A stretch of 64,000 bases of DNA from a virus, in the IMG/VR virus record IMGVR_UViG_3300030333_008051, positions 1 to 64,000 of that record; one strand, 5' to 3'. Within the stretch, counting starts at the first letter, position 1; each line of letters opens with the position of its first letter. The notes beneath the pieces are model-generated. The model saw nothing but the letters and a program-made list of their open reading frames with translations. It was not told the DNA's origin and ran no database searches. The position numbers were made by a program, and so were the translations under genes. Positions 2,663-54,736 of the stretch are shown one piece after another.

Positions 2663-2957
2663 TGCATTTGGTACCAAATTTATACTTGTTAACGATACAC
2701 AGCAAGTGCTGAATGAAAAGATATTTGGCGGTGGACCTTGGTTACACTTAGCTACTGTAGTGCGAGGATTTAAAGAATACATATGCTTTAAACATGTCCC
2801 AACCGATGCAGTTTATATCGAAGAAGTAGATCCTAAAGAACCTACATTGTTTAAAAAAATACAAGATGATCTAGAGTTTAACGATCTAAAAGACTTCTTG
2901 ATGTCTCATGGAGTTTTAAGTATCGGCATCAACAAGGAGTTCAAAGTTGCAAAATAA
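2649..2957 (+). CDS. Hypothetical protein
   Basis: 102-aa ORF with GGAG upstream, overlapping its neighbours in the operon. Confidence 0.7.
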   Translation: MIMADAFGTKFILVNDTQQVLNEKIFGGGPWLHLATVVRGFKEYICFKHVPTDAVYIEEVDPKEPTLFKKIQDDLEFNDLKDFLMSHGVLSIGINKEFKVAK

Positions 2958-3375
2958 AAGAAGCCAATGGAAAAATCAGTTCTTCGAAATAGAGTCAGCT
3001 TCCTCACTGCACAACAAGGTGAGAGAAATATTTATATCTGATAGCTTTTTTAAAAATTTAAAATGCTTTCAAGAAGTTCCTGTTGCAGCCTTGGTAGAAG
3101 GCTATAAGTATAGGAATCATAAAGTTGACTGGTACATAGATGAGCTGGAAACAATTCTAGAAATACACGGAAAACAACATTACGAAATGGCAAACTTTGG
3201 AAACCTTCCATACATGGAAGCTCTAGTTCAGCACAATAATATAAAATATAGAGACAACATGAAAAAGACAGCACTACTTAATGCTGGCTATGAGTACAGA
3301 GAAATAGATTACAAAACAACAAAAAAGCTTAATGCTGAATCAATTAAAGAAATCATATTAAATTCGGAGAGATGA
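2947..3375 (+). CDS. Vsr/DUF559-like endonuclease
   Basis: VDWYIDELETILEIHGKQHY and RDNMKK match the D..ExxGxxHY..RDxxK pattern. TTG start preceded by AAGGAG. Confidence 0.75.
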   Translation: MQNKRSQWKNQFFEIESASSLHNKVREIFISDSFFKNLKCFQEVPVAALVEGYKYRNHKVDWYIDELETILEIHGKQHYEMANFGNLPYMEALVQHNNIKYRDNMKKTALLNAGYEYREIDYKTTKKLNAESIKEIILNSER

Positions 3376-34956: not shown

Positions 34957-37900
34957 TTATGAACTAGGGACTCTAGAAAATGGTGCAGTATCTGTGCGCT
35001 TTCCTGCCTTATCAAACAAATCGAACTCTGCTATTTTTGTGACTTTATCACTCTTGTAAAGAGTGAGCTTCTTATTAGAAATCTCCCACTTTCCGGTTTC
35101 AACTTCTTTTAGTAAATCTACTGTATCTTTGATAGAAGTGGTCGTCGTGGTAAGACTGTCTAGAGATGATTGGATGGCAACAAGTTTTGCAGTATCAGTT
35201 CCTGCGGCAGAGTTTATCGACTGAGTCCAGCCGTGAATCTCCCCTATCTTCGCAGCATTAGAGTGCTGCGATCTATCGTTATTGCTGATATGCAGATGAG
35301 TATATCTTTCGTTGTTATTTAAGGTGGCACCACCAGTGAAAGCTGCGGGTATAGTTATATCTCCGCCAGCAACATTTGTAGTAATACTGGTATTTCCTGC
35401 AGTGCCATGATTATACATACTTAAAGCAAGAGCTCCGGTTGAAGAGTTTGGCGTACATATGATTAAACTTCCATGTCCGTTTGTAGTGTTTTCGATTGCT
35501 CCTTGAAGAGCATCTCGAATTTCTGTTACAGCGTCAAGGGCAGCATTGCTGGCATCATATAAAGCTACGCCGACATTACTGCCGACAAGTGAACCGTTTA
35601 CATCTTTTCCAGTTGTGAAATTGTCTACAGTTAGTCTGCTGTTTATAAGAGTAGTTGAGTTGGTTTTATTGCCTGCAGTACCGGCCGTACCTTGCACAAG
35701 TTTTACAATCGGGTTGCTTCCGCTTGTGTCCAATGTGGCAGCAATAGTTCCATTGTGACCATTTGCGTGCACAATTGCTTTTCTTATTTCTTCTGCAATT
35801 GTATCTTTTGTAGTAAGGCCTTTGGTACCAATAACAATATTTCCATTATCCAATGTTCCTGTCGGATCGACACCACCGCTAAAATTAGCTTTTGTAAGGT
35901 GCAAGTGATTAACACCACTAATAGCAATACTTTTATCTCCCGCAGTACCACCTACAGCTTGTGTAAGATCTAGTCTCAAAGGAGAGGTTCCAGCATCGAC
36001 TGCAGCAATTGTTGCGTTATGCCCAGTTGAACCTACAAGCGCAGCCTTGAACTGCGCTCTTAAATCAGATGCTGTAGTAATCCCGTGAATACCTACAAGT
36101 ACATAAGTATTTAAAACTTTTCCAGTGGCATATTTTCCACCTGAAAAACTTTCGTCAAGTTCAGTTTTTAGCCCGTCATCCATTCCGTTTGTATGGGTGA
36201 TACTTGTGTCTCCATCCGCACCAGTTGTAGCTTGGGTTAATTTTACTTGCCAATTTTCATTGTCGGACTCGGTAAATGCAGATGGGGCAGCTGAAGTAAA
36301 TGTGCCTGTAGAGCTTATAGTGGTCTTGCCGGCATCATTGTATTCGCTTTGCCTAATTACAAATGCGTTGGCATTTTGTTGCGTAACAACAAAAGTACTT
36401 CCATGCCCAACTGTAGAGTTGATTGCATTTTTTAAAGTAGTTATTTGATCGCCAGTTGTTGAACGCCTAGCTATGTAAACTCTATTTTCGACAGATTCAG
36501 AAAACGCAGTTCCAAGTGTTGCCCAGCCCCAATTTCCAGTTTTTGTAATACTTGTGCTTCCTGCAGCGCCTGGCTGACTCTGAAACATCAATACATTATT
36601 AGATGCATCAGTTTCAAAACGAATTGTTCCGTTATGCCCAGCTGAACCTAGAATACCAACTTCCATCATGTCGCCCATCATGCCAACTGTATTTGCTTTA
36701 TGTATAGCTATGTTTCCATTTGGCAAAGCAGCACCATTTGCTGCTCCACCAGTAAAAGTTGCAGGTGGATTGACACTTGTAGAATTCTCAAAATTTCCGG
36801 ACGTTGTGATTGTAGTATTGCCTGCAGAACCAAAATCTTGAGTAAGAACTACTTGTCCACCTGAAGGGTTGGAAGCAGTAATTGTTGAGCTATTAGTATC
36901 TAGCGCATTTACTGCTTCTACTAAAGATAAAGCTTGAGAAGCAGCAGCTGGTTGTATTCTAAACTTGTGATACTCACCGTTAGCAAAATTTGCTACAGAT
37001 CCACCATTTACTGCACTTGAAAAAGTATTATTTATAGTAACTACTGTATTACCTCTTGGACCATTGAAATCTTGAACAAAAGTTAATGTAGGTAAAGTTT
37101 CGTTATTGTTGTATACAGTTGTAGAAACCTTGTCGGCGCCATTAATGGTTGCTTGCAAGTTTTGAGAAGCTAGTAATGCGCTGCTACCCTTGTTGAACTC
37201 TACGCCACCACCAGTAAAATTATTTACAGTAGTATTTGCAAGGCCTGACGTGATAGTTGTGTTACCGGCCATGCCAGATACAACCTGTGTTAAAGTCAGT
37301 CCACCATTACCATCGTGAGCAACAGTTATTTTGCCGCCGTGGTTATTTGTGTGCTCTATTGCAGCCTTTAATGTATTACCAGATACGGTAGGCCCATTGT
37401 TTGCATCAAACGTGCCGGCAGATGAATTCTCTGATGTTTTTGCAGAATAAGTTTTTGAAGTACCGTCAGTTGATATTATTGTTATTGTTTCGTTAATGTT
37501 GGGGTTGCCAGTAAAAGTAATAGTTGCTTCTGATTTGATATCGTTGCCATTTGTTCCGTTAGTTTTGGCTATAAATGTCTCTTTCTCACCAGCCAGCGAT
37601 TCAATCACAATCTCTGCATTGTGAGTAAAAGCAGAATCTAGCTTAAACTTTGTGAACGCTCCTCCTGAACCATTTGGAGCTAAGCTGGAAGTTGCTATAT
37701 AATCTGTGCGTGGACTGAAGCCATTTACAAAAGCAACTGGTGCAGTCATATTCGCAATGTTATGAGTTATTGGTGTGTTGCCATAATTTGCAACAGCTCC
37801 TGTAGCTGCTTGAGTCAAGCTTAGCACGCCAGACCCATTGTCTGAAACCGTAATTCTTGATGCAGTGTGTCCATTGGCGTGGTCTATTGCGTTCTTTAGA

Positions 37901-39372
37901 CTAGTAGCCGTTAGCGCAGCACTAACGGCAGCTGAAAACTCACCGTTAGCTATTGTTGCACCACTTGCTGCAGTGTATGTTTTCTTTGTTCCGTCAGAAG
38001 AAATAAGTGTAATTTTTTCACCTACTGTTGCACTTCCTGTAAAGGTCAAAGTGGCACCGCCGTAAGTCTCACCATAATCACCCTCGGTGCTGATAAGGCT
38101 GATTACAGATCCTTCTAAAGCACTTCCACTAAAAGTAAATTCTGCCGAAGCATTTCCACCAATTTCGTAAGTCTTTGTAGTTCCAGCAGTATCTGTAAGC
38201 TGTACAGTGTCTCCAACTACAGGTAAGTCTGTAATTTGGAATTCTGTTTTTGCTCCCGAAAATCCTAAAAAGCCTTGGTGAGTTTGAGAAAAATAATTGC
38301 TGGGGTCTGCAACTACCATTGCGGAAGCTGTTTCAGATAGTACTTGGTAGGTTTTGCTTACATTGCTACTGTTAACTAATGTAAGCTCAGAGTCTGCATC
38401 GGGAATTCCAGATAAATTGAAGCTAGCAAGAGCTCTTGTGGTCGTGGCTGAGGTAATTTTGTCACCATGGCCTGCGGTAATTGCAGCCTTCATATTAGCC
38501 GCTATCTGTTTATTGGTTAAACCACTGTAGGGAACTACGTAATTACTTCCTTTCAAGTCTCCAGCACTGTAACTACTGCCATAAACCATTTCGTAAGTTT
38601 TCGCTGTATTGTCAGTGCTAGTTAAAGTAAAAGTTTCTCCTGCATTAAAATTGTTAGCTAATACTCTTATGTTTGCTGTGGATGCTGAAGCTGTAGCTGC
38701 AGTTGCATTAGAGAACTTGTAGTTCTTCGCGGTACCAGCGGTATCAGTAAGAGTTACATAGCCGTCATTGAACGCAGCAATATCATTTGCTGATGAAACC
38801 GGAAAAGCAATATTGCCACCAGATCCTTCTGCTACTGGCGCGAAAGATTCTTTAAAGACATAAGTTTTTGAAGTGTTGGCTGCGTCAACCAATGTAACTG
38901 TTCCAGCTTCCAAAAGATTTAATGTAACAACCTTTAGAGTTAAATCGCTTACTGCTTTTTGTGCAGTCATCGCTATTGTGTCTGAGAACTGGTAAGTCTT
39001 AGTTGTGGTAGCATTACCATCTGTATCGTTTGGTGCAACAATGGCTATTGTTTCATTGTTCAGATTGGCAGAAGTGGTAGTGTTGACCGTAAGGGTAGCA
39101 GTAGCTCTATTTCCCCAGTCAATCAAACCTACTATATCTTCGCCCGAATGCATCCCAGAGACATTAGTTTTTATTGAGTTCCAGTCAATGCTAGATTTGT
39201 AAAGACCTAACCCAATTTCAGTTATGGCTCCATAACTATGAGGTATTGCGACCTCACTATCTACCCCTTGAAATAGCTTCCAGATGCCTGACAAGCCAGT
39301 TTGTGCTACTCCTTGGACGTTATTTACTACGTAACTGTAGGTAACTACATTACTATAGTCGAGTGTTGACAT
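34957..39372 (-). CDS. Virion surface protein with ten nested copies of a sheath/flagellin-insertion-like domain
   Basis: Ten N-halves (AxxTxxF..GxTITLxSxDGTxKTY) and ten C-halves (LKxAI..GH..I..LxLTQ..GxxGNT.I..FTGG); short C-terminal domain ETGKWEI..FDLFD..FSRVP. Confidence 0.75.
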   Translation of the reverse strand: MSTLDYSNVVTYSYVVNNVQGVAQTGLSGIWKLFQGVDSEVAIPHSYGAITEIGLGLYKSSIDWNSIKTNVSGMHSGEDIVGLIDWGNRATATLTVNTTTSANLNNETIAIVAPNDTDGNATTTKTYQFSDTIAMTAQKAVSDLTLKVVTLNLLEAGTVTLVDAANTSKTYVFKESFAPVAEGSGGNIAFPVSSANDIAAFNDGYVTLTDTAGTAKNYKFSNATAATASASTANIRVLANNFNAGETFTLTSTDNTAKTYEMVYGSSYSAGDLKGSNYVVPYSGLTNKQIAANMKAAITAGHGDKITSATTTRALASFNLSGIPDADSELTLVNSSNVSKTYQVLSETASAMVVADPSNYFSQTHQGFLGFSGAKTEFQITDLPVVGDTVQLTDTAGTTKTYEIGGNASAEFTFSGSALEGSVISLISTEGDYGETYGGATLTFTGSATVGEKITLISSDGTKKTYTAASGATIANGEFSAAVSAALTATSLKNAIDHANGHTASRITVSDNGSGVLSLTQAATGAVANYGNTPITHNIANMTAPVAFVNGFSPRTDYIATSSLAPNGSGGAFTKFKLDSAFTHNAEIVIESLAGEKETFIAKTNGTNGNDIKSEATITFTGNPNINETITIISTDGTSKTYSAKTSENSSAGTFDANNGPTVSGNTLKAAIEHTNNHGGKITVAHDGNGGLTLTQVVSGMAGNTTITSGLANTTVNNFTGGGVEFNKGSSALLASQNLQATINGADKVSTTVYNNNETLPTLTFVQDFNGPRGNTVVTINNTFSSAVNGGSVANFANGEYHKFRIQPAAASQALSLVEAVNALDTNSSTITASNPSGGQVVLTQDFGSAGNTTITTSGNFENSTSVNPPATFTGGAANGAALPNGNIAIHKANTVGMMGDMMEVGILGSAGHNGTIRFETDASNNVLMFQSQPGAAGSTSITKTGNWGWATLGTAFSESVENRVYIARRSTTGDQITTLKNAINSTVGHGSTFVVTQQNANAFVIRQSEYNDAGKTTISSTGTFTSAAPSAFTESDNENWQVKLTQATTGADGDTSITHTNGMDDGLKTELDESFSGGKYATGKVLNTYVLVGIHGITTASDLRAQFKAALVGSTGHNATIAAVDAGTSPLRLDLTQAVGGTAGDKSIAISGVNHLHLTKANFSGGVDPTGTLDNGNIVIGTKGLTTKDTIAEEIRKAIVHANGHNGTIAATLDTSGSNPIVKLVQGTAGTAGNKTNSTTLINSRLTVDNFTTGKDVNGSLVGSNVGVALYDASNAALDAVTEIRDALQGAIENTTNGHGSLIICTPNSSTGALALSMYNHGTAGNTSITTNVAGGDITIPAAFTGGATLNNNERYTHLHISNNDRSQHSNAAKIGEIHGWTQSINSAAGTDTAKLVAIQSSLDSLTTTTTSIKDTVDLLKEVETGKWEISNKKLTLYKSDKVTKIAEFDLFDKAGKRTDTAPFSRVPSS

Positions 39373-44006: not shown

Positions 44007-44570
44007 TTATGCGTTTTTTAAAGTCGCTATCCAATTCATTATAGGTCCGCAGCCTGGGTGCTCTGGACCCATTGGCCCACAAACTCCAGCAATACTGGTA
44101 GGAAGATTCGTATCTACTTCGCTTACTATTGGTTCGGTAGTTAACCCGTTGCAATACTCTGTACCACGCGAACCAATAAATTCTCCTCTACCAGCGTTTA
44201 GTTGATGCGGTTCCGGACCTTCTGCAAAAACTTGAAAAAGTTTATCTTCAAAAGCATCGGGAGTACTGCCTACTTTCCAGACATCCTCCTCGCTTTTGTA
44301 AACTCTAGAGTCTGCTGGAACACGTATCTCTGTTTCAGTGCCTGGAATTTTCGCCCTTATATAGAAAAGTGGGCGAGTATCACAATCGTCTCCAAATGGT
44401 TTTGCTTCACCTTGACCAAACCCTTTAATCCCATCTATTCCAGTGCACAAGTAAGGTCCAAAACACTTTGTATATGTTTGTTCACTGTAAGTAGACCTTT
44501 TGATTTCGGAATGTGACTGATCAGTTCTTACTGAACTGACTTGGTTGGTTCTAGTTTTTGAAGTAGACAT
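44007..44570 (-). CDS. Hypothetical baseplate-region protein (spike-gene position)
   Basis: Start MSTSK at 44570 overlaps the upstream stop (TAATG); located between the hub-like gene and the wedge genes. Confidence 0.6.
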   Translation of the reverse strand: MSTSKTRTNQVSSVRTDQSHSEIKRSTYSEQTYTKCFGPYLCTGIDGIKGFGQGEAKPFGDDCDTRPLFYIRAKIPGTETEIRVPADSRVYKSEEDVWKVGSTPDAFEDKLFQVFAEGPEPHQLNAGRGEFIGSRGTEYCNGLTTEPIVSEVDTNLPTSIAGVCGPMGPEHPGCGPIMNWIATLKNA

Positions 44571-47500
44571 TATAGATTTTCCTTTGACCAATCGAACATA
44601 GTTACTCCATGGTGTATGTAGCGATCAACAAAACCACTTCTGTTACCATGTATTTTATCATATGCTGCCCAACTATGAGCTTTATATACTTGCCATTCAT
44701 CAACAAGCCTAGTCATACCATTCATAGTATCTTCTGCAGCGTTTGTAACGTTGCCAAGTATACTGTTGAATAGTTCTGCTGGGCTCTTAAGCGTTAAGCC
44801 GCTAACAATAGGTCGATTTCCTTTTATCAATGGTACTACATTCACTGTCTCTTCTTCCATACATTTCGCAAAAAGTATTGGCATTCCAATAAGCCAAGCA
44901 GCAGAAGATCCTATTGCACCAGATCTCTGTGTCATTCCACTGATTCCTGCTTGACCTGCAACTATTGCTACTACACTTTGTATTAGCGGGCTATAGTGAG
45001 ACAGATTGAAGTTTCTAATTGGGTGACGCGCAGCGCCAAGAAGTCTTGGAACGTTCATCAACAATCTTCCGCTACCAGCAGCCAAAGCTGCTGTACCAAA
45101 AATTCCGCTTAATATACCGTAAGTTGCACTAAGACGATTACTGTTTGCAGACCTTACAATATCTCTTCCATCTTCGACCAAACCGTTGTCTTCCAAAACT
45201 TCTATAAAATCTTCAAGAGGATTTTCTTGTCCAAATCTTGTAGAATATTTTTTCATAAAAAAGTCAACCATGCGCGAGTCTGCTTCTGGAGAAAAGAACA
45301 TGTCTGTATTTCCAAAGAAATCTGCTCCTTTTCCATTTTCTTCAACTGACTTGACGGCCATTGCAAATAATTTTATTCCCTCAAGTATTGGCCAAGTTGA
45401 AATTTCGTTTGCCATTACTACTGCATTTGGTTTTATCTCAGTTAAGAAACCAGTTTCATGACTAAACATATGTACGACAGATTCAACTTCTACTGGTCCA
45501 TACATATCGTTGTAGTCATCCATAAGTATACAGACATCCCAAGGTCTTATCCTTGGGTTGCCTAAGATCATTATTTCACCCTTATACATTTCTCTCAAAC
45601 CGTACATAAGCGCAGATTGTCCATATCTTAGTGCCATTGATTGGCCTTTGCAATTTGGATAATTAACTACTGCAGTGTTGAGCATATTGTCTGGTATTTG
45701 AGAACTAGCTTTCATAAACTGAGTTTTTATTGGCGACACACCAGCTGAAGTTTCACGAGGTCTTCCGTCTTTCTCATTCCAATCGATATATTGAACATTG
45801 ACTGCATTGACTACGCTAGATTCACTTGTCATGATTCCGTTTTGAACTATGTCTTGATCAGAAGTAATCATGTGCCACCTTCTGAATGGAACAAATCTGT
45901 TTTCCATACCAGTAACAAATTCTTGCATCATTCTGTTTTGAAAATGATCCGTCCACATAGTTTGGGCTTTTGTCTCTGTGTCGCCGGCCAGGTGTTCCCA
46001 ACGTTCGTATGCTTCGGCGGAAGGGCTGGGAAGAGTTGGGTTTAGTGCTTGTGCGGCCAAGAGAGCAGTGTCATACCATTCTTGAATAATATCGCGAGGA
46101 TAAAGCTCTTCTGCTTGTTTGCGTAAAGTATTGTAGTTATTTCCAGGGTCATTTAGATATCTGTGGATCTTATTCATTCTTTGTACAAAATTAGTATCTC
46201 CTGGTCTTGCCCAGTACCTTTGGGAAGGAACTCCGAAGAACATAGTGTTTCTAAATTTTGTTCCATACGGTCTAACCCCATAGATCCATCCTGGGTGTCT
46301 ATGTGACATTTCCTGGAAGGTTTGCCAAATCGTTTGTGCTCTCAATTTATATCTGCAAGCTCCAGGTCTTACTCTTTTCTCAAGAATGTGTGCGTCAGGT
46401 ATATCAGACCACGCATCAAACCACTCAGACATTTTAGTGTAAGTTATTCCAACATAATTGTTTAGTATGCTGTCGAACATTGCTCTTACTGGCATTTCAA
46501 CATTTCTTTCCCAAAAACTTTTCTTATCATACCAACCTAAAGTCATATAGCTTGCAGGATTTGGAGGAAAAAGATTGTCATCTGCGGGAGTCATTTTTAG
46601 TGTTGCTTTAACTTTTGCTACAGACTGTCTGTATTTGTTTATATAGTTATCTTGAGCCCACCTAGTAATATTCGTTAATAAAAGATCTGCACCCTTTGCA
46701 GCAATCCACAACGGCACCGCAGCTCTAACCAAGTTGGCTGGACCTTTAATAAAGAGATTACCAAATGTAGCTTTACCAACCATCCATGCTAAAGGTGCTA
46801 CAGATGATCTTCCTGCCCAACCTTTTAGCGATTGTGCTGCAGCACCCATTGGCCACCAAGCAAACCTTTGCACCGCTGCCCTTGTTTGAAGTTCGTACAC
46901 TTCTCTTGCTATATTTTGTCTTGCAAGTAGTCGAGCGTTTCCCGTGCTATTCGCTGCTGTTCTTGCAGCTTGAGTTATTCTAGCTGCAGCAGCCGCTGCA
47001 GCTTCCGATCCTCTAATGCCGCTGATTCTGTCTATAAGTTGTTTAGCTGCTGTCGCTGCACGACCAGCAGTACCATTGAAACCTGGTTTTAACACTTCTG
47101 CTAATTCATCAGCACTGGCGACAAGATCATCAATTGATGAACCCCAACGAGTTCCAAGCCTCATTGCAGGCCCGCCACTTCTTACCGCACTACCCCAACC
47201 AGGCCCTCCAGAGCGCACATTTTTAATTATGCTGCCTAAGATTCTGAAAGGGGTCATAAGAGCATAACCTACTATGTTTTCTCCTGGAGATAAAGGATTG
47301 TTATAGCTCAACCAACTAAAAACTCTGCTTCGCTGACTAGCTTGTTGCACATAAGTGACGGTTGGACGAGCAGTTTGAACCATTGCGCCTGGAAAGGTCT
47401 CAGTTGCTTGCATTGGGCCAATTAAAGGTTGGCCCCCACCTGCAACTCGACCACCTGATCCTCGAGCAACCAATCTGGCACCACCTGCTCTAACTGCCAA

Positions 47501-50500
47501 CATTCCAGCAATCAGTGTACCAGTAGCTAATGCTATAGATAATACTGGGTGGTTTGATATCCAACTTGTTAGAGAGTTTGAAATTGGATTGTTTCCTACA
47601 AAACCCTCCCTTGAATATGGATAGAAATCTAAGTCTGCACTTTTATCTTCACCTATCTGCCTAAGTCTGCCATACTCCCATCTTCCAAAATGATGCAATT
47701 CTGGTTGCGTCATCATTGCACCTAAAAGTTGGTGAGTACTGTAGTAAGTTTGATTATCCCAATCTACACTTCTGTCTGTTCCGCCAACACCCTTGATTTT
47801 TTGTGTAAGTTCGGTACCAAATGATTGTACTGTTATCTCAACTAAATCACCATTTTTATTCCATGCAATATCTGTCGCTCTTCCGTTTAGAAGTACACTC
47901 AGCATATTCGGATCATTGCTGTAACCAACCCTAAGTTGAACATTCATACCTGGTCTTAATACAAGAGCTGTAAACGGCTGGTCATTTGCAGCCACTTCGC
48001 TATTATCTGCTCTAGTTGCTATGTTCGGATTATCCTCTGCGATACGCTCAGCTTCTTTTTCATTAAAATAATCAAGATCTACGATTGAGTTTCTTCTAGT
48101 TCCATCGAGCGTTCCATTTACATTTTGCAGAACTATAGTAGCAGTATCTCCAGGATCTTTTCTCGTTGCATAGAAAGTAAATTCTTTTACAGCGTTATAG
48201 CTGTAAAAATCATCCATATTAAGAAATCTTGACTCATGCTCATCTTCTTCTACGAAGAATAGTTTGAAAGTTGGATAAGCCCTTTTCATCGACATCTTGT
48301 TTGAAATAATATCTGAAGAAGAATTTCTTGCTAAATTTTGCAAATTAGCAGGATCGTAAAACTGCTCATATTCAGCAATAGTATTTATTCTACTTTCTGC
48401 TAAGTCTCTACTTATTTTGCTCGCAGTATCTTTGTTTATAACGTTACCAAGATAAGCTTCTCTTGACCCCATCATCGCTTCGAAACCTCTCATCTTTTGA
48501 GCTAGTTCTCCATAAGTGTGCTTGTCGACAGAAGTTTGACTTATGTATTGGGGATTACCATCAGTGCTGCTGATAGGAATAACTGAGGTCTTTGCAGCAA
48601 CTATTTCTTCATCTGTAGCGTAGGTGTTTACATCTTCGTCTGGACGCTCCACAGCTGAAAGAAGTCCAACTTCGGTAGAGTTGTATATTCCCGTATGTCT
48701 TTCATCTGCATTGTCTATTAAAGTTTGTAATGATTCTTGTCTTTTTGACCTGTAAGAGCTTAGTTCGTCTGTTCTGGGAAGTCCGCTAGAGTTAAGTCCA
48801 AATAAAGAACCATGGAAGGGGTTGCCAGTGGGACCGGTATCTACCCATGCAGAAGTATTGTCTGAACCAACAGGCTTTCCGTAAACCCTTGCTGTACCAG
48901 GATTATCGTAAGGGTTACCTTCAGGTCCAGGAGCGGCACCGGGTACTGCCCATTCATAATGAACATCTGCTTTCATCAAGTCAACTTGATCACTACCCTC
49001 TGGGTGAGAAACTATTCTTGAAAGCCTGGGAGTAAGATCTGCTGAAGCAGAATAGACACTAAGTCCTGCATCAGATTTTGGCTCAAGACCATTTTTCTGT
49101 GTACGTTTGTGAAAACGGTATGCAGCTTCAACAGCAATTCTGCTTTGATTATAAACTTCTTCTTCTATTGCCCCTCTTACGCCAAGACCAGCATCTTCAT
49201 AAGCGTTCCACATATAAAAGTCTGGAGTTACAGAATATGCAAAACGACTGTCGTAATACGGATGTTTAGGAAGATCTAGATCTGGATAACATTCTGCACC
49301 AACATATTCATTTACTAATCCTTGTTCGGGCAACTCTGTGTCTGCAAAGCCAATTGCGGCCATCAGTGCAGGACTACCAATTATACGGTCTGCAAATTCA
49401 GTTAAAATTCTTTTTAACTGAGCAAGTTTTTGTCTTTCTTGATCTAGGTTTGTCAAATTGTCAAGACCTGGATCTGGAGACTGATTCATAGTCATTTGCC
49501 AAGCAAACTCTCCCTTTTCGGGAGTGCCTCCCACAACATTGTGCTGCATGAACGCCCAGGGACTTTCTCCGATTATCCCTGGTGTAGTACCTGGAGCTGT
49601 AGGTTCAAATACTCTGCCGCGGGCTTTATCAGTTGCTGTCTTTAATTGCAAGAAGGGGTCAACAGCAACCTGAGTTCCTCCTGCTAAAAGCCCCATATTT
49701 TGACCTCTGCCAAATTGAGTAACTAGTTGTCGACCAACACCTTGCTGAGTATATGCTGCGAGTTGTTGTGCGCTCATCCCTTTAGTTGTACCCGCCATCA
49801 ACATTGATCGTGTTCTTGCTAATGCAGCTGCACCAAGTGCTGCCTCCCCTGCTGGTCCATCAAAAGGTATCGCAGCAGCAGCAGCCGTTCCCGCCCATAG
49901 CAAGCCAACAAGAATCCAACCAGTAGCACCAGCCGTCATTGCTCCTTGCCTAAAAGAGTAAAGCCACCCAGACATGGTAGGTGAGTTCATTAAGTACTCT
50001 GGACTAAAAAACCAATCGTTAAAAATATTGACTTGATCTCGAACACCAAAGTATCGATTACCACCCAAGACTTCATCAACGAAACTATGAGTAAGAGCTT
50101 CAGCTATGGAGGGTACTAGATCCCCTATAACTTCCATCTTTAGTCCCTTGTTGAAAGGTATTACGCTTTGTGCGTAAATCCTACCTAAGCCCTGTACAGC
50201 ATTATCAAATCTTTGCTGAGCTTCTCGAACTTCACTATCTGTGCTGTTGAACATTTCTCCAGTAAAATTGCCTGCAGCAATATCGGTAGGCATGTTTGTG
50301 CCCCAGGCTTCCCAAACATCTGCAAATGGTTCTAGAAAGTTTTGCCTTTCTTCGCTAAGCGTCATCATGGCGTTTCCTTCAATCCATTGCAAATCTTGAT
50401 TTTTAAGTTTTGACTCTATGTTGAAGCCCCAGTTGACTGTTCCGTATATCCCGTCAATATCTGCAGGAGTCAATCCTTCAGTGGCAGCTGCAAGCTCTTC

Positions 50501-53500
50501 ATAGCTGTCATAACCTTCTCCAGTTGCAGCTAGTTCTCTAAAATAATACATCAGCCAACTAATATAGCCCGACCACATGCAACCCTTAGTTGCTTCTTCT
50601 GGTAGATCGTAAAGCTCTTTTGCAATATCTCCATTTTCTAAACCATTCTGGAGTTCACTTTCTGCAAGTATTAATCTTCCGGTTCTCAAAATATTATTAA
50701 GAGTCATCCAGAGTTCTTTTAAAGCACTTACCTGTTCTTCTCCACTACCTTCTTTTGCAGTTACTGAACCAAGATCTGTTTGATGCACATCATAATAGTC
50801 TGTAGAATTGATGACATACTTATCTGTTAAAGTAGCAACGTTGCCAGAAGTTACAGATCTATTATTTTGGTTGTACCATGTCTCAATTTCATCTGCTGTA
50901 GGTATTGCTCCCTCGCTTGGAATTCCTCCAGGAAAGCTGGAAGCATTTTTTTGAAAATATTCAATGTCATTTTGAGTAAGTTCAGGAATCGAAGGCAAAC
51001 CACCGCCAGCACCACCTTCTCTACGATCATGTATTTCTCCAAAAAGAAGACCAAAATCTCCTGATTCTCGCAAAGCATCAGTTACAGAGTTGTTACCAAT
51101 TAGCCACCAGTCGCTAGATCCGGTTCTGTCTTCATTCATCTTAACTGCTTCGTACATACCATAGTCGGTTTGGACGGGAATTGTAGAGCCACCACCTGGT
51201 GACGGTAGATGTAAATTGAATGCCATTCCCGAAGTATCATCTAGAATATAATTTGCTGTTTTCTTTTCGGCTCCAATCTGACTATTTTGGTAAGCAATTT
51301 CTGATGTAGGGGATAGCTCTGTCTGACTTCCTCCAGATCCACTGGATATCTTTCCAGAAGCTTCCATAGCTTCCCAAAAGTAACCGTAACCTTGCTCTGT
51401 TCTGATATATTGAAAGTCTGATTGTTGGGCTCTTCCAGAGCCTGTAACATAATGTTCTATTGGCCATTCTGTAGTTAAAAACTCTTGACGCCTTAGGGCG
51501 TCATGATCCATGATAGTGAGATTTTCTATTTCCTTAATATCGGAAACATTGGCAAAATGTGCTGCTGTTAAATTTTGTTCTGCAAGGTAGTTTGCTATTT
51601 CTTTTGGATCAGAAATAGTTCTAGTCAGTTCTGCCATTAGCAATGAGGCAAGACCATCTTCAGATAGGTCTAACGACCAAATCTTATTCAAAACTCTTGA
51701 TCTTAATTCATCCCTATCGCTTGGCTGTTCTGAAATAACAGTTAGTACTTCTGTATCATAGGGATTAGTTTCTGAAAGTTCCATTACGAAAGAAGACATG
51801 CCAGCAGTACCTTCAACAGTGTTTTGCTGAGTACGATGGATTACTGTTCTTTTCTTTAAGAATTCTTGATCATTGTCCTCTGGTAAAAAGAAATCCGGAT
51901 CTTTGTAGCTGCCTAAAAGTCTTGTTATGAAATGGTCTGTTGCAACACAATGTCCATCTGGAATTGGTCGATAAACTCTGGCATTTTTCTGGAGGTTTGA
52001 TCTCATATACTCAAGCAATGCACCTTCTTCTGATAAGTTGTCATTGTTTTCGCTATCCGCACTGGTAACAAACTCTAATACATAGCTAGGCTCCATTGAA
52101 CCGAGATGCTGATGCGTTGGGAACTCTTGCCCAATTAGAGGTATGCTAGCTACAATATGATTTATTGAACCTACAATATTGCTTACAACTAAATTGTCTG
52201 GGGATTTTATATTCAGTATGCTGCTTCTTGAATCATAGCTTGAATCTGCCCTACCCTCATACATTGCTTGAGTTATCGGCATTGAAAAATCTGGTTGCAT
52301 AGTTGGCCAGAAGTTTGAGTTTTCACTTATAAAAGTGTATGCAACTGTTCTTTTAAGAACGTTGCTTACATCTTGGTTATCCTCATATTCTACCCAGCCT
52401 GCCTGTATGAATGATTCGTATTCTCTTCTAATTTTTTCTTGCTCTTCGGGAGGAATTTCTAAATCTGAGGCCCATCCTTCATCACCTTCGTCAGGAATCG
52501 TACTTGAACCAGTAGAATCCTCATCTATAGGACTTTCTTTATAATCGTTGATCCCAAACCAATCACCATCATTATCTGATGTATTTATACCCTGTAAAAT
52601 GTCTTGGATTTCTATGTCTATTTCCTCAAGAGTTCGAGCATCCCCTGAAGCATCAGAAATTGTTGCTGCTTCACTTCTTGTAGCGGTAAAAGATATTAAT
52701 GGATCTATTTTTGTACCAGCACGGGTTGTTTCACAATGCAGATGGTTGCCGCCAGAATAGCCAGTATTTCCTACATAACCAATCAAATCACCTCTACGTA
52801 CTTGAATAGCATCAGCCATCCCAGTTGCATGATACTGAACTGTACAACCTCGAGTTCCATGAGTCCCGTTGTATGTAGCCAATCGATTGCCATTTACAAC
52901 TTCTTCTACTTTATTTAAATGAGAGTATGTGATTTCCCAAGAAGCTCCTGGTTGAATTTCACCATATTCATCTAGCACAGCTAAACCAGTAACCTCGAGA
53001 GTAAGCTGCAAACCATAGCCGTTACCACGGCCAAAAGGCACTTCAGAAAAATCACTAAATTTTTCACCAGTTGTTGTATTGACCATATAATCAGGCTGTC
53101 TTGCTGACATCCTGTTTGCAGTAGAAGTTTGGCTAACCCACAGAATTCCATCTTCTGCAGCATAGATTGGTGTATTTTTTGGAGCAGCAACATCAATCCC
53201 ATTGTGAGGTCTAGTTTTACCATTATAAGTTCTCATTCCAAAACCGGAATTTATTTCATATCCTGGTATTGGTGCATAAAAGAAATAATCAGTAACTCCT
53301 AAATACTCTCCTTCGAGTTCTGAAGTTGTGGGAAGTCTACCCCAGTCGGCATCTCGTGGGGAAGTGTTGCGTCTAGAGTATTCGCTAAATTCGCTAACGT
53401 AAGTCCAACTACTGTCATGGCCATGTTCCGGCTCATACTCTGAGCCACTACCAGCTTGTCTTGCACCAACTATATCTTCTAGCCCTCGAGACCGAACTCT

Positions 53501-54736
53501 AAGAGCTTCCATGCGTTCTCTTACAGCTTCTTGTTGCTGCTTCTGCATAGCTTGAACAATGTCAAATCTTACATCGAGAGCTGTAAACTCATGCCAATAG
53601 AAAGTTATTTTCTTTGTTTGGGCATAGCATGCATCTGCTATTTGAGCTACTAAAGCTCTTGATGTTGTTGGTCCGTGAAGTGCATCTACTATGAAATGAG
53701 CGCCTGCTCTTGGAGCTATACTTGTTGAAGTTTCACTAACTGGAGCCCCTTGAGTAAAACGATCAATACCGTGCCCTTCCATTTCCGCCTCACTTGGCTC
53801 TGTAGGCGAGGGGTAATAACCTGTGGTGTATCTGGCCCAATCACCTGGATCCATCATATCTGCTATATCTACACCAAAACATTCGTAGAGATTCTTTTGT
53901 TGCAAGTAGTTGCAATACCTTTTGTAAATATTTGAGTACTGAGGCAAGACTGGGGTAGCTTTTCTCATCACCCACGGGTCTCTTGGCAATAAGTCAAAAA
54001 CTTCACCCGCATGAGTAAAAAGCATACTATTTATACTTCTTCCTCCAGTTATATCTTGTGGCTTGCTGTAAGAATCAAAGCTATCAATTGCGCCATAATC
54101 TGTATTGCCAGCATTATCTAAAGGTCCAGAGCCTGGTCGACGTTCGCTATCTCCAAACGAAGTTATAGTAGGTTGTCTTAATAACTCTTTTCCAAAAGTA
54201 TCAATGGTTCGCCTTACATAACTATTCCCATCTGAACTATAAAAGGGAATTGTTTGCCACTCATCTCGATACATCCAGTTTAAAGCATAAGGTTTATAGT
54301 TAAACCACCTGAGATCCAGATCTATCATGAATGTTCCTGGACTACCTTTGAAGTTCTGAACGGTAAGGTTGGTCATTGTAAATGCCATGTTCTGATACAA
54401 AGGCCAATCTGGACATATTGAATCTCTTAAATATCTACTTTCTACATAGCAAAAAGGTGAATGCCTCAGTTGACAAATAAGCCTATGCATATGAAGGAAT
54501 AAATCTGGTGTAAAGACCAGTCTAACCGAGACTTGAACAATGCCGTGCCCACTAGGAACTTTTGTAGAAACTTTGGTACGCAAAGTTTTCCACTGCCACA
54601 TCATATCTTCTTTTCGAACAGATATGTTTGTTGGAGGAATGATAAGATCTATATCGTTGATTTGAAAAATTATTTTCGAAGGATCTTCTTCTGCAGTAAG
54701 CAATCCTTTATCTACAACACCACCTGCGGATCTCAT
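44570..54736 (-). CDS. Giant (3388 aa) tail-tip/baseplate hub protein with M23 metallopeptidase domain
   Basis: M23 motifs HNGID (H511/D515), YSHL, RRGDLIGYVGNTGYSGGNHLH (H665/H667). Hub-like segments VQLRVGYSNDP..L..LLNG and YKGEIMILGNPRIRPWD. Confidence 0.85.
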   Translation of the reverse strand: MRSAGGVVDKGLLTAEEDPSKIIFQINDIDLIIPPTNISVRKEDMMWQWKTLRTKVSTKVPSGHGIVQVSVRLVFTPDLFLHMHRLICQLRHSPFCYVESRYLRDSICPDWPLYQNMAFTMTNLTVQNFKGSPGTFMIDLDLRWFNYKPYALNWMYRDEWQTIPFYSSDGNSYVRRTIDTFGKELLRQPTITSFGDSERRPGSGPLDNAGNTDYGAIDSFDSYSKPQDITGGRSINSMLFTHAGEVFDLLPRDPWVMRKATPVLPQYSNIYKRYCNYLQQKNLYECFGVDIADMMDPGDWARYTTGYYPSPTEPSEAEMEGHGIDRFTQGAPVSETSTSIAPRAGAHFIVDALHGPTTSRALVAQIADACYAQTKKITFYWHEFTALDVRFDIVQAMQKQQQEAVRERMEALRVRSRGLEDIVGARQAGSGSEYEPEHGHDSSWTYVSEFSEYSRRNTSPRDADWGRLPTTSELEGEYLGVTDYFFYAPIPGYEINSGFGMRTYNGKTRPHNGIDVAAPKNTPIYAAEDGILWVSQTSTANRMSARQPDYMVNTTTGEKFSDFSEVPFGRGNGYGLQLTLEVTGLAVLDEYGEIQPGASWEITYSHLNKVEEVVNGNRLATYNGTHGTRGCTVQYHATGMADAIQVRRGDLIGYVGNTGYSGGNHLHCETTRAGTKIDPLISFTATRSEAATISDASGDARTLEEIDIEIQDILQGINTSDNDGDWFGINDYKESPIDEDSTGSSTIPDEGDEGWASDLEIPPEEQEKIRREYESFIQAGWVEYEDNQDVSNVLKRTVAYTFISENSNFWPTMQPDFSMPITQAMYEGRADSSYDSRSSILNIKSPDNLVVSNIVGSINHIVASIPLIGQEFPTHQHLGSMEPSYVLEFVTSADSENNDNLSEEGALLEYMRSNLQKNARVYRPIPDGHCVATDHFITRLLGSYKDPDFFLPEDNDQEFLKKRTVIHRTQQNTVEGTAGMSSFVMELSETNPYDTEVLTVISEQPSDRDELRSRVLNKIWSLDLSEDGLASLLMAELTRTISDPKEIANYLAEQNLTAAHFANVSDIKEIENLTIMDHDALRRQEFLTTEWPIEHYVTGSGRAQQSDFQYIRTEQGYGYFWEAMEASGKISSGSGGSQTELSPTSEIAYQNSQIGAEKKTANYILDDTSGMAFNLHLPSPGGGSTIPVQTDYGMYEAVKMNEDRTGSSDWWLIGNNSVTDALRESGDFGLLFGEIHDRREGGAGGGLPSIPELTQNDIEYFQKNASSFPGGIPSEGAIPTADEIETWYNQNNRSVTSGNVATLTDKYVINSTDYYDVHQTDLGSVTAKEGSGEEQVSALKELWMTLNNILRTGRLILAESELQNGLENGDIAKELYDLPEEATKGCMWSGYISWLMYYFRELAATGEGYDSYEELAAATEGLTPADIDGIYGTVNWGFNIESKLKNQDLQWIEGNAMMTLSEERQNFLEPFADVWEAWGTNMPTDIAAGNFTGEMFNSTDSEVREAQQRFDNAVQGLGRIYAQSVIPFNKGLKMEVIGDLVPSIAEALTHSFVDEVLGGNRYFGVRDQVNIFNDWFFSPEYLMNSPTMSGWLYSFRQGAMTAGATGWILVGLLWAGTAAAAAIPFDGPAGEAALGAAALARTRSMLMAGTTKGMSAQQLAAYTQQGVGRQLVTQFGRGQNMGLLAGGTQVAVDPFLQLKTATDKARGRVFEPTAPGTTPGIIGESPWAFMQHNVVGGTPEKGEFAWQMTMNQSPDPGLDNLTNLDQERQKLAQLKRILTEFADRIIGSPALMAAIGFADTELPEQGLVNEYVGAECYPDLDLPKHPYYDSRFAYSVTPDFYMWNAYEDAGLGVRGAIEEEVYNQSRIAVEAAYRFHKRTQKNGLEPKSDAGLSVYSASADLTPRLSRIVSHPEGSDQVDLMKADVHYEWAVPGAAPGPEGNPYDNPGTARVYGKPVGSDNTSAWVDTGPTGNPFHGSLFGLNSSGLPRTDELSSYRSKRQESLQTLIDNADERHTGIYNSTEVGLLSAVERPDEDVNTYATDEEIVAAKTSVIPISSTDGNPQYISQTSVDKHTYGELAQKMRGFEAMMGSREAYLGNVINKDTASKISRDLAESRINTIAEYEQFYDPANLQNLARNSSSDIISNKMSMKRAYPTFKLFFVEEDEHESRFLNMDDFYSYNAVKEFTFYATRKDPGDTATIVLQNVNGTLDGTRRNSIVDLDYFNEKEAERIAEDNPNIATRADNSEVAANDQPFTALVLRPGMNVQLRVGYSNDPNMLSVLLNGRATDIAWNKNGDLVEITVQSFGTELTQKIKGVGGTDRSVDWDNQTYYSTHQLLGAMMTQPELHHFGRWEYGRLRQIGEDKSADLDFYPYSREGFVGNNPISNSLTSWISNHPVLSIALATGTLIAGMLAVRAGGARLVARGSGGRVAGGGQPLIGPMQATETFPGAMVQTARPTVTYVQQASQRSRVFSWLSYNNPLSPGENIVGYALMTPFRILGSIIKNVRSGGPGWGSAVRSGGPAMRLGTRWGSSIDDLVASADELAEVLKPGFNGTAGRAATAAKQLIDRISGIRGSEAAAAAAARITQAARTAANSTGNARLLARQNIAREVYELQTRAAVQRFAWWPMGAAAQSLKGWAGRSSVAPLAWMVGKATFGNLFIKGPANLVRAAVPLWIAAKGADLLLTNITRWAQDNYINKYRQSVAKVKATLKMTPADDNLFPPNPASYMTLGWYDKKSFWERNVEMPVRAMFDSILNNYVGITYTKMSEWFDAWSDIPDAHILEKRVRPGACRYKLRAQTIWQTFQEMSHRHPGWIYGVRPYGTKFRNTMFFGVPSQRYWARPGDTNFVQRMNKIHRYLNDPGNNYNTLRKQAEELYPRDIIQEWYDTALLAAQALNPTLPSPSAEAYERWEHLAGDTETKAQTMWTDHFQNRMMQEFVTGMENRFVPFRRWHMITSDQDIVQNGIMTSESSVVNAVNVQYIDWNEKDGRPRETSAGVSPIKTQFMKASSQIPDNMLNTAVVNYPNCKGQSMALRYGQSALMYGLREMYKGEIMILGNPRIRPWDVCILMDDYNDMYGPVEVESVVHMFSHETGFLTEIKPNAVVMANEISTWPILEGIKLFAMAVKSVEENGKGADFFGNTDMFFSPEADSRMVDFFMKKYSTRFGQENPLEDFIEVLEDNGLVEDGRDIVRSANSNRLSATYGILSGIFGTAALAAGSGRLLMNVPRLLGAARHPIRNFNLSHYSPLIQSVVAIVAGQAGISGMTQRSGAIGSSAAWLIGMPILFAKCMEEETVNVVPLIKGNRPIVSGLTLKSPAELFNSILGNVTNAAEDTMNGMTRLVDEWQVYKAHSWAAYDKIHGNRSGFVDRYIHHGVTMFDWSKENL

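What the first reader, a model, noticed from the sequence alone, without database searches (positions are those of the whole stretch)
35329..39108. 'Russian-doll' protein: ten homologous domains recursively nested inside each other
Seen: in the 1471-aa protein only two copies of the ~110-aa domain are contiguous (D8, aa ~439-551; D10, aa ~612-722). The other eight are split. N-halves ending in a KTY-like strand open at aa ~89 (D1), 138 (D2), 182 (D3), 228 (D4, which runs through AAITAGHGDKIT to ~310), 312 (D5), 372 (D6), 406 (D7) and 570 (D9). C-halves (helix LKxAI, GH, LxLTQ, GxxGNT, FTGG) then close in reverse order at ~723-799 (D9), 800-876 (D7), 877-960 (D6), 961-1036 (D5), 1037-1079 (D4), 1080-1167 (D3), 1168-1255 (D2) and 1256-1348 (D1). 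The bookkeeping balances. The closer at 1037 lacks exactly the helix-GH part that D4 already supplied, and D7's missing KTY strand (RTDY, ~555) appears right after D8, so D7 carries two inserts and the tree is branched. The whole stack appears to interrupt a small host domain (..VGLIDWG | ATLNNNERY..). Inference: the gene grew by repeated insertion of a domain into loops of its own copies. That gives an up-and-back stalk about nine domains deep with both termini at the base, likely a long and mechanically robust virion appendage. Nested insertion is known from tail sheaths and flagellins, but I know of no case of this depth made from one repeated domain.
Basis: partly seen in the sequence, partly recalled or inferred. 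Interest (0 to 1): 0.88.

Follow-up and report, generated by a model that had tools for sequence, protein, structure and literature searches.

The report
Nine-deep self-nested domain, phage baseplate protein
A 1471-residue protein in the tail-baseplate gene block of an uncultured marine phage is built from ten copies of one ~110-residue surface domain, eight of them split open and carrying the others inside, nine levels deep; that is deeper than the six levels published for any protein, but the three-dimensional stack itself has not yet been modelled with confidence.

Summary
The ORF at window 34957-39372 (-) encodes 1471 aa. A profile built only from contiguous copies of the domain in 102 other proteins finds 18 pieces in it, against 0.08 in shuffles. 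There are eight first parts, two whole copies (D8, D10) and eight closing parts, in bracket order and nine deep, with a fork at D7. The strongest internal proof is D4. Its first piece covers profile positions 3-74, and the closer, fourth from the end, starts at position 75. Relatives repeat the grammar (NC, NCNC, NNCC, NNNCCC, and trees using two insertion loops); none has an N-only or C-only array.

The whole copy D10 folds at pLDDT ~98. It matches the external D3 domain of myophage tail sheaths (Z 10.6), and also nozzle and flagellin/FliD outer domains. So this is a known portable plug-in fold, here inserted into itself.

Direct structural support is thin. AlphaFold on 1118 residues failed (pLDDT 33). 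The split D9 halves stayed at low confidence. A two-chain test of the D7 halves gave weak support (0.53 against 0.01 for the best control).

The stalk shape and the function are inferred. This scan has already noted self-nested phage proteins on other DNA, and the published precedent is the RNA polymerase Si3 insertion (six levels). I class it as a new variant of a known kind.

The parts
34957..39372 (-). Whole ORF, 1471 aa (P0001), third gene downstream of a Baseplate_J gene
39109..39372 (-). Head, aa 1-88; 76% identical to the only orthologue P0002 (the stack is ~50%)
38962..39108 (-). D1 first part (strands 1-3), aa 89-137
   Evidence: profile 3-43
38830..38961 (-). D2 first part, aa 138-181
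38692..38829 (-). D3 first part, aa 182-227
38440..38691 (-). D4 long first part, aa 228-311: strands 1-4, helix, GH motif and strand 5; broken at the second insertion loop
   Evidence: (profile 3-74)
38260..38439 (-). D5 first part, aa 312-371 (with a 25-aa extra stretch after the KTY strand)
38158..38259 (-). D6 first part, aa 372-405
38059..38157 (-). D7 first part, aa 406-438; host of two inserts (the fork)
37720..38058 (-). D8, contiguous whole copy, aa 439-551
   Evidence: profile 5-111, 104 bits
37666..37719 (-). 18-aa linker between the two inserts of D7 (contains RTDYIAT), role open
   Evidence: sequence only
37540..37665 (-). D9 first part, aa 570-611 (most diverged copy)
37207..37539 (-). 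D10, contiguous whole copy, innermost, aa 612-722; AlphaFold pLDDT ~98; sheath-D3-like fold
36976..37206 (-). D9 closing part, aa 723-799
36745..36975 (-). D7 closing part, aa 800-876
36493..36744 (-). D6 closing part, aa 877-960
36265..36492 (-). D5 closing part, aa 961-1036
36136..36264 (-). D4 short closing part, aa 1037-1079: only strands 6-8, exactly what the long first part lacks
   Evidence: profile 75-100; 39-77 of the C-half model
35872..36135 (-). D3 closing part, aa 1080-1167
35608..35871 (-). D2 closing part, aa 1168-1255
35329..35607 (-). D1 closing part, aa 1256-1348
34960..35328 (-). Tail, aa 1349-1471; 72% identical to P0002; no family or solved relative found

Best explanation
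The protein is a recursively self-nested multidomain protein. One ~110-residue domain is present ten times. Its fold is a beta-sandwich with one helix after strand 3, the fold of the external D3 domain of myophage tail sheaths.

Eight copies are discontinuous. The chain makes strands 1-3 of D1, leaves through a loop, makes strands 1-3 of D2, and so on inward. After the two whole copies D8 and D10 it returns, completing D9, D7, D6, D5, D4, D3, D2 and D1 in that order. The tree is D1(D2(D3(D4(D5(D6(D7(D8, D9(D10))))))))). That is nine domain levels inside a head and a tail that lie 1260 residues apart in sequence.

Two loops accept inserts: the loop after strand 3 (used nine times) and the strand 5/6 hairpin (used by D4). 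By strand parity both loops lie on the face opposite the domain's own termini. Each level should therefore add one domain's length, giving an out-and-back rod with a small fork at the tip. This geometry is inferred.

The gene lies in the baseplate/fibre block. The most likely role is a peripheral baseplate or fibre-like appendage that displays ten copies of a plug-in surface domain, perhaps for weak adhesion or for reach. The function is inferred and not shown.
For: - **Independent profile.** A profile from 102 other proteins' contiguous domains hits P0001 18 times, against 0.08 in shuffles. First-part, whole and last-part profile ranges fall in bracket order.
- **Complementary break.** D4 covers profile 3-74. 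Its closer starts at profile 75 and sits fourth from the end, as reverse-order pairing predicts. Parallel pairing would put it fourth from the start.
- **Grammar in relatives.** Of 182 proteins with tokens, 102 are single NC. Others are NCNC, NNCC, NNNCCC and NNCCNC. A ~2300-aa family uses both insertion loops, with complementary profile ranges in nested order. 31 of 74 multi-token proteins parse, against 9.3 after shuffling tokens; most failures carry surplus C tokens (weak 33-aa N-halves probably missed). No N-only or C-only array appears apart from three single-token proteins and one 236-aa 'CCC' member.
- **One domain, not two.** D10 folds at pLDDT ~98 as one compact unit. It aligns over both halves (model 42-150) to sheath D3 of A-1(L) with Z 10.6, 2.1 A, 92 residues, and to phiTE, Milano and Mu sheaths, T7-type nozzles and FliD/flagellin. 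PhiTE D3 is described as a seven-stranded sandwich with a helix between strands 3 and 4 (PMC11972413).
- **Half-domain co-folding test.** D7's two parts, 361 residues apart, gave ipSAE 0.53 against a best control of 0.01, rated 'weak support'. The mark was reached by 58 of 80 solved complexes and 2 of 110 mismatched pairs, but at 0.60 or under by only 7 of the 80 and by both mismatches that passed. The runs agree in at least 92% of contacts and partner pLDDT is at least 70 (my own alignments were used).
- **Mirrored similarity.** Similarities among first parts mirror those among their assigned last parts: Mantel r 0.59, reached by 5 of 20000 permutations, against 0.38 for parallel pairing.
- **Conserved layout.** The orthologue P0002 (51% identity) keeps the same layout.
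- **Context.** A Baseplate_J gene lies three genes upstream.
Against: - No confident 3-D model of any split copy exists. AlphaFold on aa 138-1255 gave pLDDT 32.6.
- In the aa 570-799 model, the D9 halves reached only 45-74 and D9's helix was not predicted. No coordinates were available, so no contact map could be read.
- The complex score is only 'weak support', and homologous halves might score so from likeness alone.
- The Mantel result is partly carried by D8/D10 and by neighbour effects.
- 43 of 74 multi-token relatives do not parse strictly.
- Virion membership, oligomeric state and rod geometry are untested.
- No PHROG or Pfam family names the protein.
Confidence: 0.8

Rival explanations
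1. There are two independent tandem arrays. The ~35-residue N-type units are autonomous three-stranded mini-domains strung in a row, followed by a separate row of ~80-residue C-type domains. The equal counts are a coincidence.
For: The order N...N C...C is also what two tandem arrays would give. AlphaFold gave no confident pairing for the split copies.
Against: The contiguous unit is one compact sandwich whose structural matches span both halves. Counts balance here (10 and 10) and in NNCC and NNNCCC relatives, and no complete protein has only one type. D4's break at profile 74/75 with the closer at the mirror position has no reason under this model. The D7 halves are predicted to co-fold, 0.53 against 0.01 for the best control, rated weak support.
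Confidence: 0.06
2. The pairing is the same, but it occurs between chains. In an antiparallel dimer or higher oligomer the first parts of one chain are completed by the closing parts of another (3-D domain swapping). This would give a rod about twice as long instead of a hairpin.
For: An antiparallel arrangement brings N_i of one chain opposite C_i of the other, so the sequence evidence cannot tell it from the hairpin. The two-chain prediction shows that the halves can be modelled as separate chains. Fibre-like phage proteins are usually oligomers.
Against: The short loops at the tip (D7-D8, D9-D10) and the contiguous innermost copies fit a closed hairpin. Published nested domains (Si3, sheaths, flagellins) are intramolecular (PMC13114784, PMC9230969). 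I have no positive evidence for swapping.
Confidence: 0.08
3. The middle of the protein is a decayed or largely disordered Thr/Ser/Asn/Gly-rich spacer. The repeats are relics and no longer fold.
For: The composition is biased (T 14%, A 11%, G 10%, S 10%, N 9%). AlphaFold confidence for the whole stack is very low. D7 and D9 have lost the GH motif.
Against: All twenty pieces keep the hydrophobic strand patterns. Eight of ten copies keep GH and nine of ten keep the Q of LTLTQ. The orthologue at 51% identity keeps every unit without frame damage. The low pLDDT is explained by a two-row alignment, since D10 rose from ~30-45 to ~98 once a 70-row alignment was supplied.
Confidence: 0.04

Closest known systems
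Si3 insertion of cyanobacterial RNA polymerase beta' (RpoC2): recursively inserted hybrid-motif (SBHM/HABAS) domains
   Same: One small domain type is inserted into loops of its own copies, in the pattern A1-B1-C-B2-A2. It has bifurcating nodes and forms an elongated arm. It is described as a six-level recursive insertion with eight domains (PMC13114784; also PMC10895346, PMC11515920).
   Different: Si3 has a different fold (an all-beta hybrid motif, against a sandwich with a helix here) and a different host (the trigger loop of an enzyme, against a phage baseplate-block protein). It has six levels against nine here. Si3 is seen in cryo-EM, whereas this stack is inferred from sequence.
External D3 domain (class I) of type-2 myophage tail sheath proteins (phiTE, Milano, A-1(L); also Mu)
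   Same: The fold is the same: a seven-stranded sandwich with a helix after strand 3 (PMC11972413). D10 aligns with Z 9.6-10.6, 2.1-3.0 A over 89-102 residues. Both are surface-exposed inserted modules whose termini are adjacent. One relative of the present family (P0005) is itself a sheath protein carrying one copy.
   Different: There is no sequence-level match to any solved chain. Sheath D3 is a single insert in a different host domain and is not inserted into itself.
Multidomain sheaths, flagellin D2/D3 and FliD D2/D3: out-and-back chains with nested outer domains
   Same: Some outer domains are formed from an outgoing and a returning stretch of chain, with both termini at the base (PMC9230969). 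D10 matches FliD and flagellin outer domains at Z 6-8.4.
   Different: Those nests are about two to five levels deep. As I recall they are built from unlike domains; I did not check this in the papers read. Here one family is nested nine times.
Portable 'plug-in' decoration domains of phage virion proteins
   Same: The same sequence family sits as a single or double insert in T7-type nozzle proteins (PF25675), tail tubular protein (PF17212), sheath (PF17482) and a ConA-like lectin protein. About 306 clusters carry it.
   Different: In those proteins it is a passenger in a foreign host. Here it is both host and passenger, repeatedly.

Membership tests
Sheath-D3-like external domain fold (class I) | Seven-stranded beta-sandwich with one alpha-helix between strands 3 and 4 (PMC11972413) | tested here: met
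   The AlphaFold model of D10 has pLDDT ~98, with element order E E E (short E) H E E E E. VIA-align gives Z 10.6, rmsd 2.1 A, 92 residues aligned to A-1(L) sheath residues 91-184, and Z 9.9 to phiTE residues 86-178.
Sheath-D3-like external domain fold (class I) | Sequence homology to a solved D3 domain | tested here: inconclusive
   A profile of D8 and D10 against PDB sequences gave no match below E 0.28. Identity in the structural alignments is 13-21%.
Recursive domain insertion architecture (as defined for Si3: A1-B1-C-B2-A2) | Pieces of each interrupted domain flank the complete inserted domain, in strictly nested order | tested here: met
   The external-profile coordinates and the grammar parse give depth 9. 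D4's pieces are complementary (profile 3-74 and 75-100).
Recursive domain insertion architecture (as defined for Si3: A1-B1-C-B2-A2) | The two pieces of an interrupted domain form one folded unit in three dimensions | tested here: inconclusive
   The D9 halves reach pLDDT 45-74 in the model of aa 570-799. The 1118-residue model failed. The D7 halves gave ipSAE 0.53 against a best control of 0.01, 'weak support'.
Phage tail fibre / peripheral baseplate protein | Gene lies in the baseplate-fibre block of a contractile-tail phage | tested here: met
   Baseplate_J (PF04865, E 8e-21; phrog_6) lies three genes upstream on the same strand. An M23-peptidase giant protein lies further upstream, and a run of large ORFs follows.
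Phage tail fibre / peripheral baseplate protein | Homology to a characterised fibre or baseplate family, or presence in virions | tested here: not met
   No PHROG or Pfam family matches. There is no tblastn hit in 50,697 phage records. The head and tail have relatives only in P0002/P0178. Virion presence is not testable here.

The most novel reading that the evidence does not exclude
This is the deepest homotypic domain nest yet documented for the sheath-D3 plug-in fold: nine levels, or ten with the head/tail host. It shows that a phage can build a rod of tunable length from a single chain by repeatedly inserting one domain into two loops on its own distal face. On this reading, recursive insertion rather than tandem repetition or coiled coils is a general, unrecognised way in which phage appendages grow.
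Probability: 0.5. Interest if true: 0.8.

Novelty: new variant of a known kind. Interest (0 to 1): 0.68.

Why it matters
Domain insertion is normally one level deep, and a 2026 survey of 2.7 million domains presents six levels (Si3) as its example of hierarchical nesting (PMC13114784). A nine-level nest of a single domain family offers more than a record.

- Relatives at depths 1, 2 and 3, with two defined insertion loops, give a natural series for asking how proteins grow by insertion. They also bear on how such chains fold, since the outermost domain cannot close until about 1100 residues have been made.
- The same series can be used to ask what mechanical properties an out-and-back rod has.
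- For phage biology, it adds a third way of making long appendages, beside trimeric beta-helices and coiled coils.
- It extends the known promiscuity of the sheath-D3-like plug-in domain to self-insertion.

Tried and rejected
- **AlphaFold on aa 138-1255** with a two-row alignment gave pLDDT 32.6 and was uninformative.
- **AlphaFold on aa 570-799** with 70 rows gave a confident D10, but the D9 halves were at low confidence. No coordinates or contact map were available to me.
- **Complex prediction on the D7 halves** gave weak support only: 0.53 against a best control of 0.01.
- **D2 as the test pair** was planned, but MAFFT misaligned the first 19 residues of D2C, D3C, D1C, D6C and D5C onto N-half strands. 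I used D7, which aligned cleanly.
- **Plain self-BLAST** returned only the identity hit; sliding windows worked.
- **Insert-less or different-depth orthologues.** None turned up among shorter or similar-length proteins when searching with the tail; only P0002 and a fragment of the protein itself were found.
- **Other sequence searches.** IMG/VR with the whole protein found nothing. IMG/VR with a D8/D10 profile found six loci, which I did not use. tblastn against GenBank phages found nothing.
- **Tail region.** The ESM Atlas and PDB sequence searches found nothing.
- **Literature.** Word searches for nested insertion in phages found nothing specific.
- **Other copies in the genome.** The domain occurs in no other ORF of the 108-kb record.


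Full report
**What is there.** The finding lies in one ORF, window 34957-39372 on the minus strand. It encodes 1471 aa (P0001).

The window belongs to an IMG/VR virus record of 108 kb, estimated 73% complete. Relatives of the protein come from marine viral-fraction metagenomes.

Three genes upstream on the same strand is a Baseplate_J / baseplate wedge gene. Further upstream is a 3388-aa protein with an M23 peptidase domain. Downstream follow eight more large ORFs without family matches, and then a glycosyltransferase-like gene. The gene therefore sits in the baseplate/fibre block of a contractile-tail phage. The protein itself matches no Pfam or PHROG family and no GenBank phage.

**Is the repeat pattern real?** Yes.
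- Sliding 50-aa windows compared with the whole protein show two classes of similarity. Stretches in aa ~87-440 and 570-650 match only the first third of the two contiguous copies. Stretches in aa 723-1348 match only their last two thirds.
- To avoid circularity I built a 112-position profile only from contiguous copies of the domain in 102 other proteins. It hits P0001 18 times at independent E<0.01, against a mean of 0.08 and a maximum of 1 in 100 shuffles of aa 89-1348. This control matters because the protein is rich in Thr, Ala, Gly, Ser and Asn.
- The profile ranges give seven pieces covering only the first part (positions ~2-43) and one long first piece. They also give two whole copies (aa 439-550 and 613-722), seven pieces covering only the last part (~37-112) and one short last piece.

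**Nested, or two tandem arrays?** Several observations favour nesting.
1. The long first piece (D4, aa 230-308) covers profile positions 3-74. The short closing piece (aa 1036-1061) starts at position 75. It is the fourth closing piece from the end, just as D4 is the fourth opener from the start. Parallel pairing would have put it fourth from the start. Independent arrays give no reason for such complementarity.
2. A representative search with a D8+D10 profile finds 306 clusters at E≤0.001. Among 173 of these proteins first tokenised (182 in the later parse), 102 carry a single contiguous copy and 16 carry NCNC. Others carry NNCC (P0033, P0038, P0078, P0133), NNNCCC (P0041), NNCCNC or NCNNCC. 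None has an N-only or C-only array apart from three single-token proteins and one 236-aa 'CCC' member.
3. A ~2300-aa family (P0021, P0022, P0027) uses both insertion loops in one tree. Its partial pieces have complementary profile ranges in the nested positions, for example 10-35 … 4-33 … 33-77 … 32-77.
4. With a stack grammar, P0001 reads NNNNaNNNNCNNCCCCCbCCC. It parses completely, with depth 9 and a fork at D7. The grammar rules are: N opens, C closes, 'a' is the first part of C, and 'b' closes a domain already holding 'a'. 31 of 74 multi-token relatives parse, against 9.3 after shuffling tokens. Most failures carry surplus C tokens, most simply because the 33-residue N-half is missed when diverged.
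5. Similarities among N-halves mirror those among their assigned C-halves. Mantel r is 0.59, reached by 5 of 20000 permutations, against 0.38 for parallel pairing. This is supportive only, because D8/D10 and neighbour effects contribute.
6. The orthologue P0002 (1484 aa, 51% identity) keeps the same order of units.

**What is the domain?** With a 70-row alignment, AlphaFold folds aa 570-799 at mean pLDDT 77. The contiguous D10 (model residues ~40-157) is at ~98. Its elements are three strands, a short strand, a 14-residue helix and four strands.

VIA-align places it on the external domain of type-2 tail sheaths:
- A-1(L) 8kee_A residues 91-184: Z 10.6, 2.1 A, 92 residues.
- phiTE 9cba residues 86-178: Z 9.9.
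- Milano and Mu sheaths: Z 8.8-9.6.

It also aligns to residues ~146-247 of T7-type nozzle proteins (Z 8-9), and to FliD and flagellin outer domains (Z 6-8.4). The phiTE paper describes this 'D3' as a seven-stranded sandwich with a helix between strands 3 and 4. It is absent from many sheaths, sits on the surface and sometimes contacts fibres (PMC11972413).

There is no sequence-level match to any solved chain. Members of the present sequence family are themselves inserted in nozzle, tail-tubular and sheath proteins. It is therefore a portable plug-in domain. What is unusual in this gene is that host and passenger are the same domain, nine times over.

**Direct structural tests of the nest.** These were weak.
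- AlphaFold on aa 138-1255 with only the orthologue as alignment failed, with pLDDT 32.6.
- In the smaller model the two D9 halves that flank D10 reached only pLDDT 45-74 and D9's helix was not formed.
- A two-chain prediction of D7's closing part (aa 800-876) with D7's first part (aa 406-438), each with a 60-row alignment, gave ipSAE 0.53 against 0.01 for the best of three controls. The tool rates this 'weak support'.
- For calibration, the mark was reached by 58 of 80 solved complexes and 2 of 110 mismatched pairs. At 0.60 or under, however, it was reached by only 7 of the 80 and by both mismatches that passed. The runs agree in at least 92% of contacts and partner pLDDT is at least 70.
- The two chains are homologous to the two parts of a domain that folds confidently, so my prior was high. 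The pass may equally reflect that likeness.

**Geometry and function (inferred).** In D10 strands 1-3 are joined by short turns, so the chain leaves strand 3 at the end of the sandwich opposite its N-terminus. By the same parity the strand 5/6 hairpin, the second insertion site, also lies on that far face. Inserted copies should then stack end to end. This would make an out-and-back rod of nine domains with D8 and D9/D10 forking at the tip, and with the head (aa 1-88) and tail (aa 1349-1471) together at the base.

Head and tail are more conserved than the stack (76% and 72% identity to P0002, against ~50%). That fits an anchoring role. Whether they form one domain is untested, and I found no insert-less homologue.

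Near-invariant residues across the family (Tyr of KTY, Gly-His, Gln of LTLTQ) are kept in most copies. Eight of ten copies keep GH. This could mark a ligand site or merely the core.

My best reading is a peripheral baseplate or fibre-like appendage that multiplies a surface plug-in domain along a single-chain rod. I put about 0.8 on the nested architecture and about 0.4-0.5 on the rod-shaped virion appendage. An intermolecular, domain-swapped version of the same pairing cannot be excluded from sequence.

**Comparison with what is known.**
- Recursive insertion of one domain type is published for the Si3 arm of cyanobacterial RNA polymerase. It is described as a six-level recursive architecture with eight domains, the deep-nesting example in a survey of 2.7 million domains (PMC13114784; also PMC10895346, PMC11515920).
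- Sheath proteins with up to five or more added domains include domains formed from an outgoing and a returning stretch of chain (PMC9230969).
- The present case uses a different fold from Si3 and goes to nine levels of the repeated domain, ten with the host. I found no paper describing it.
- This scan's own earlier notes already record self-nested phage proteins on other DNA, mostly small beta-barrels, 4 to 12 levels deep. They also record the sheath-D3-like plug-in domain spread over virion proteins, once inside a copy of itself. I did not test those notes. They agree with the kind of thing seen here.
- I therefore class this as a new variant of a known kind.

**Limits.** The 150 listed representatives are half of the family. 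The grammar parse depends on detection thresholds for a 33-residue half-domain.

Noticed in passing
window 11860-34914 (-): Directly downstream of the nested gene lie eight further ORFs (883, 1029, 714, 151, 1164, 1056, 673 and 1335 aa), seven of them large. The seven large ones have no PHROG match, and the three I scanned against Pfam (883, 1029 and 714 aa) have no Pfam match either. They are followed by a 667-aa ORF with a glycosyltransferase-like match (phrog_2170). This is an unusually long run of unannotatable presumed fibre or baseplate genes.
   Followed up: partly
window 44570-54736 (-): A 3388-aa ORF carries an M23 peptidase domain at aa ~642-692 and an endolysin-type PHROG match at aa ~2920-3108. 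It lies upstream of the Baseplate_J gene and is probably a giant hub or tape-measure-like protein with lytic domains.
   Followed up: partly
P0021, P0022, P0027, P0004, P0139, P0028 (proteins of ~2260-2360 aa from other metagenomes): This family carries three separate nests of the same domain in its first ~1300 residues: NNCC, then NNNCC…, then a tree that uses both insertion loops. It is the best natural comparison set for how the nests grow.
   Followed up: partly
P0001 aa 1349-1471 (window 34960-35328, -): The C-terminal tail has a heptad-like stretch (…AKLVAIQSSLDSL…IKDTVDLLKEVE…) followed by a small strand-rich end (KWEISNKKLTLYK…FDLFDK…). No family, Atlas or PDB relative was found. It may be the oligomerisation or anchoring part.
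   Followed up: partly
family-wide (alignment A3): The near-invariant residues of the plug-in domain are Tyr (KTY), Phe (strand 4), Leu and Ile of the helix, Gly-His after the helix, Gln of LTLTQ, Gly of GNT and Phe of FTGG. A conserved His and Gln on a decoration domain might mark a binding site.
   Followed up: no
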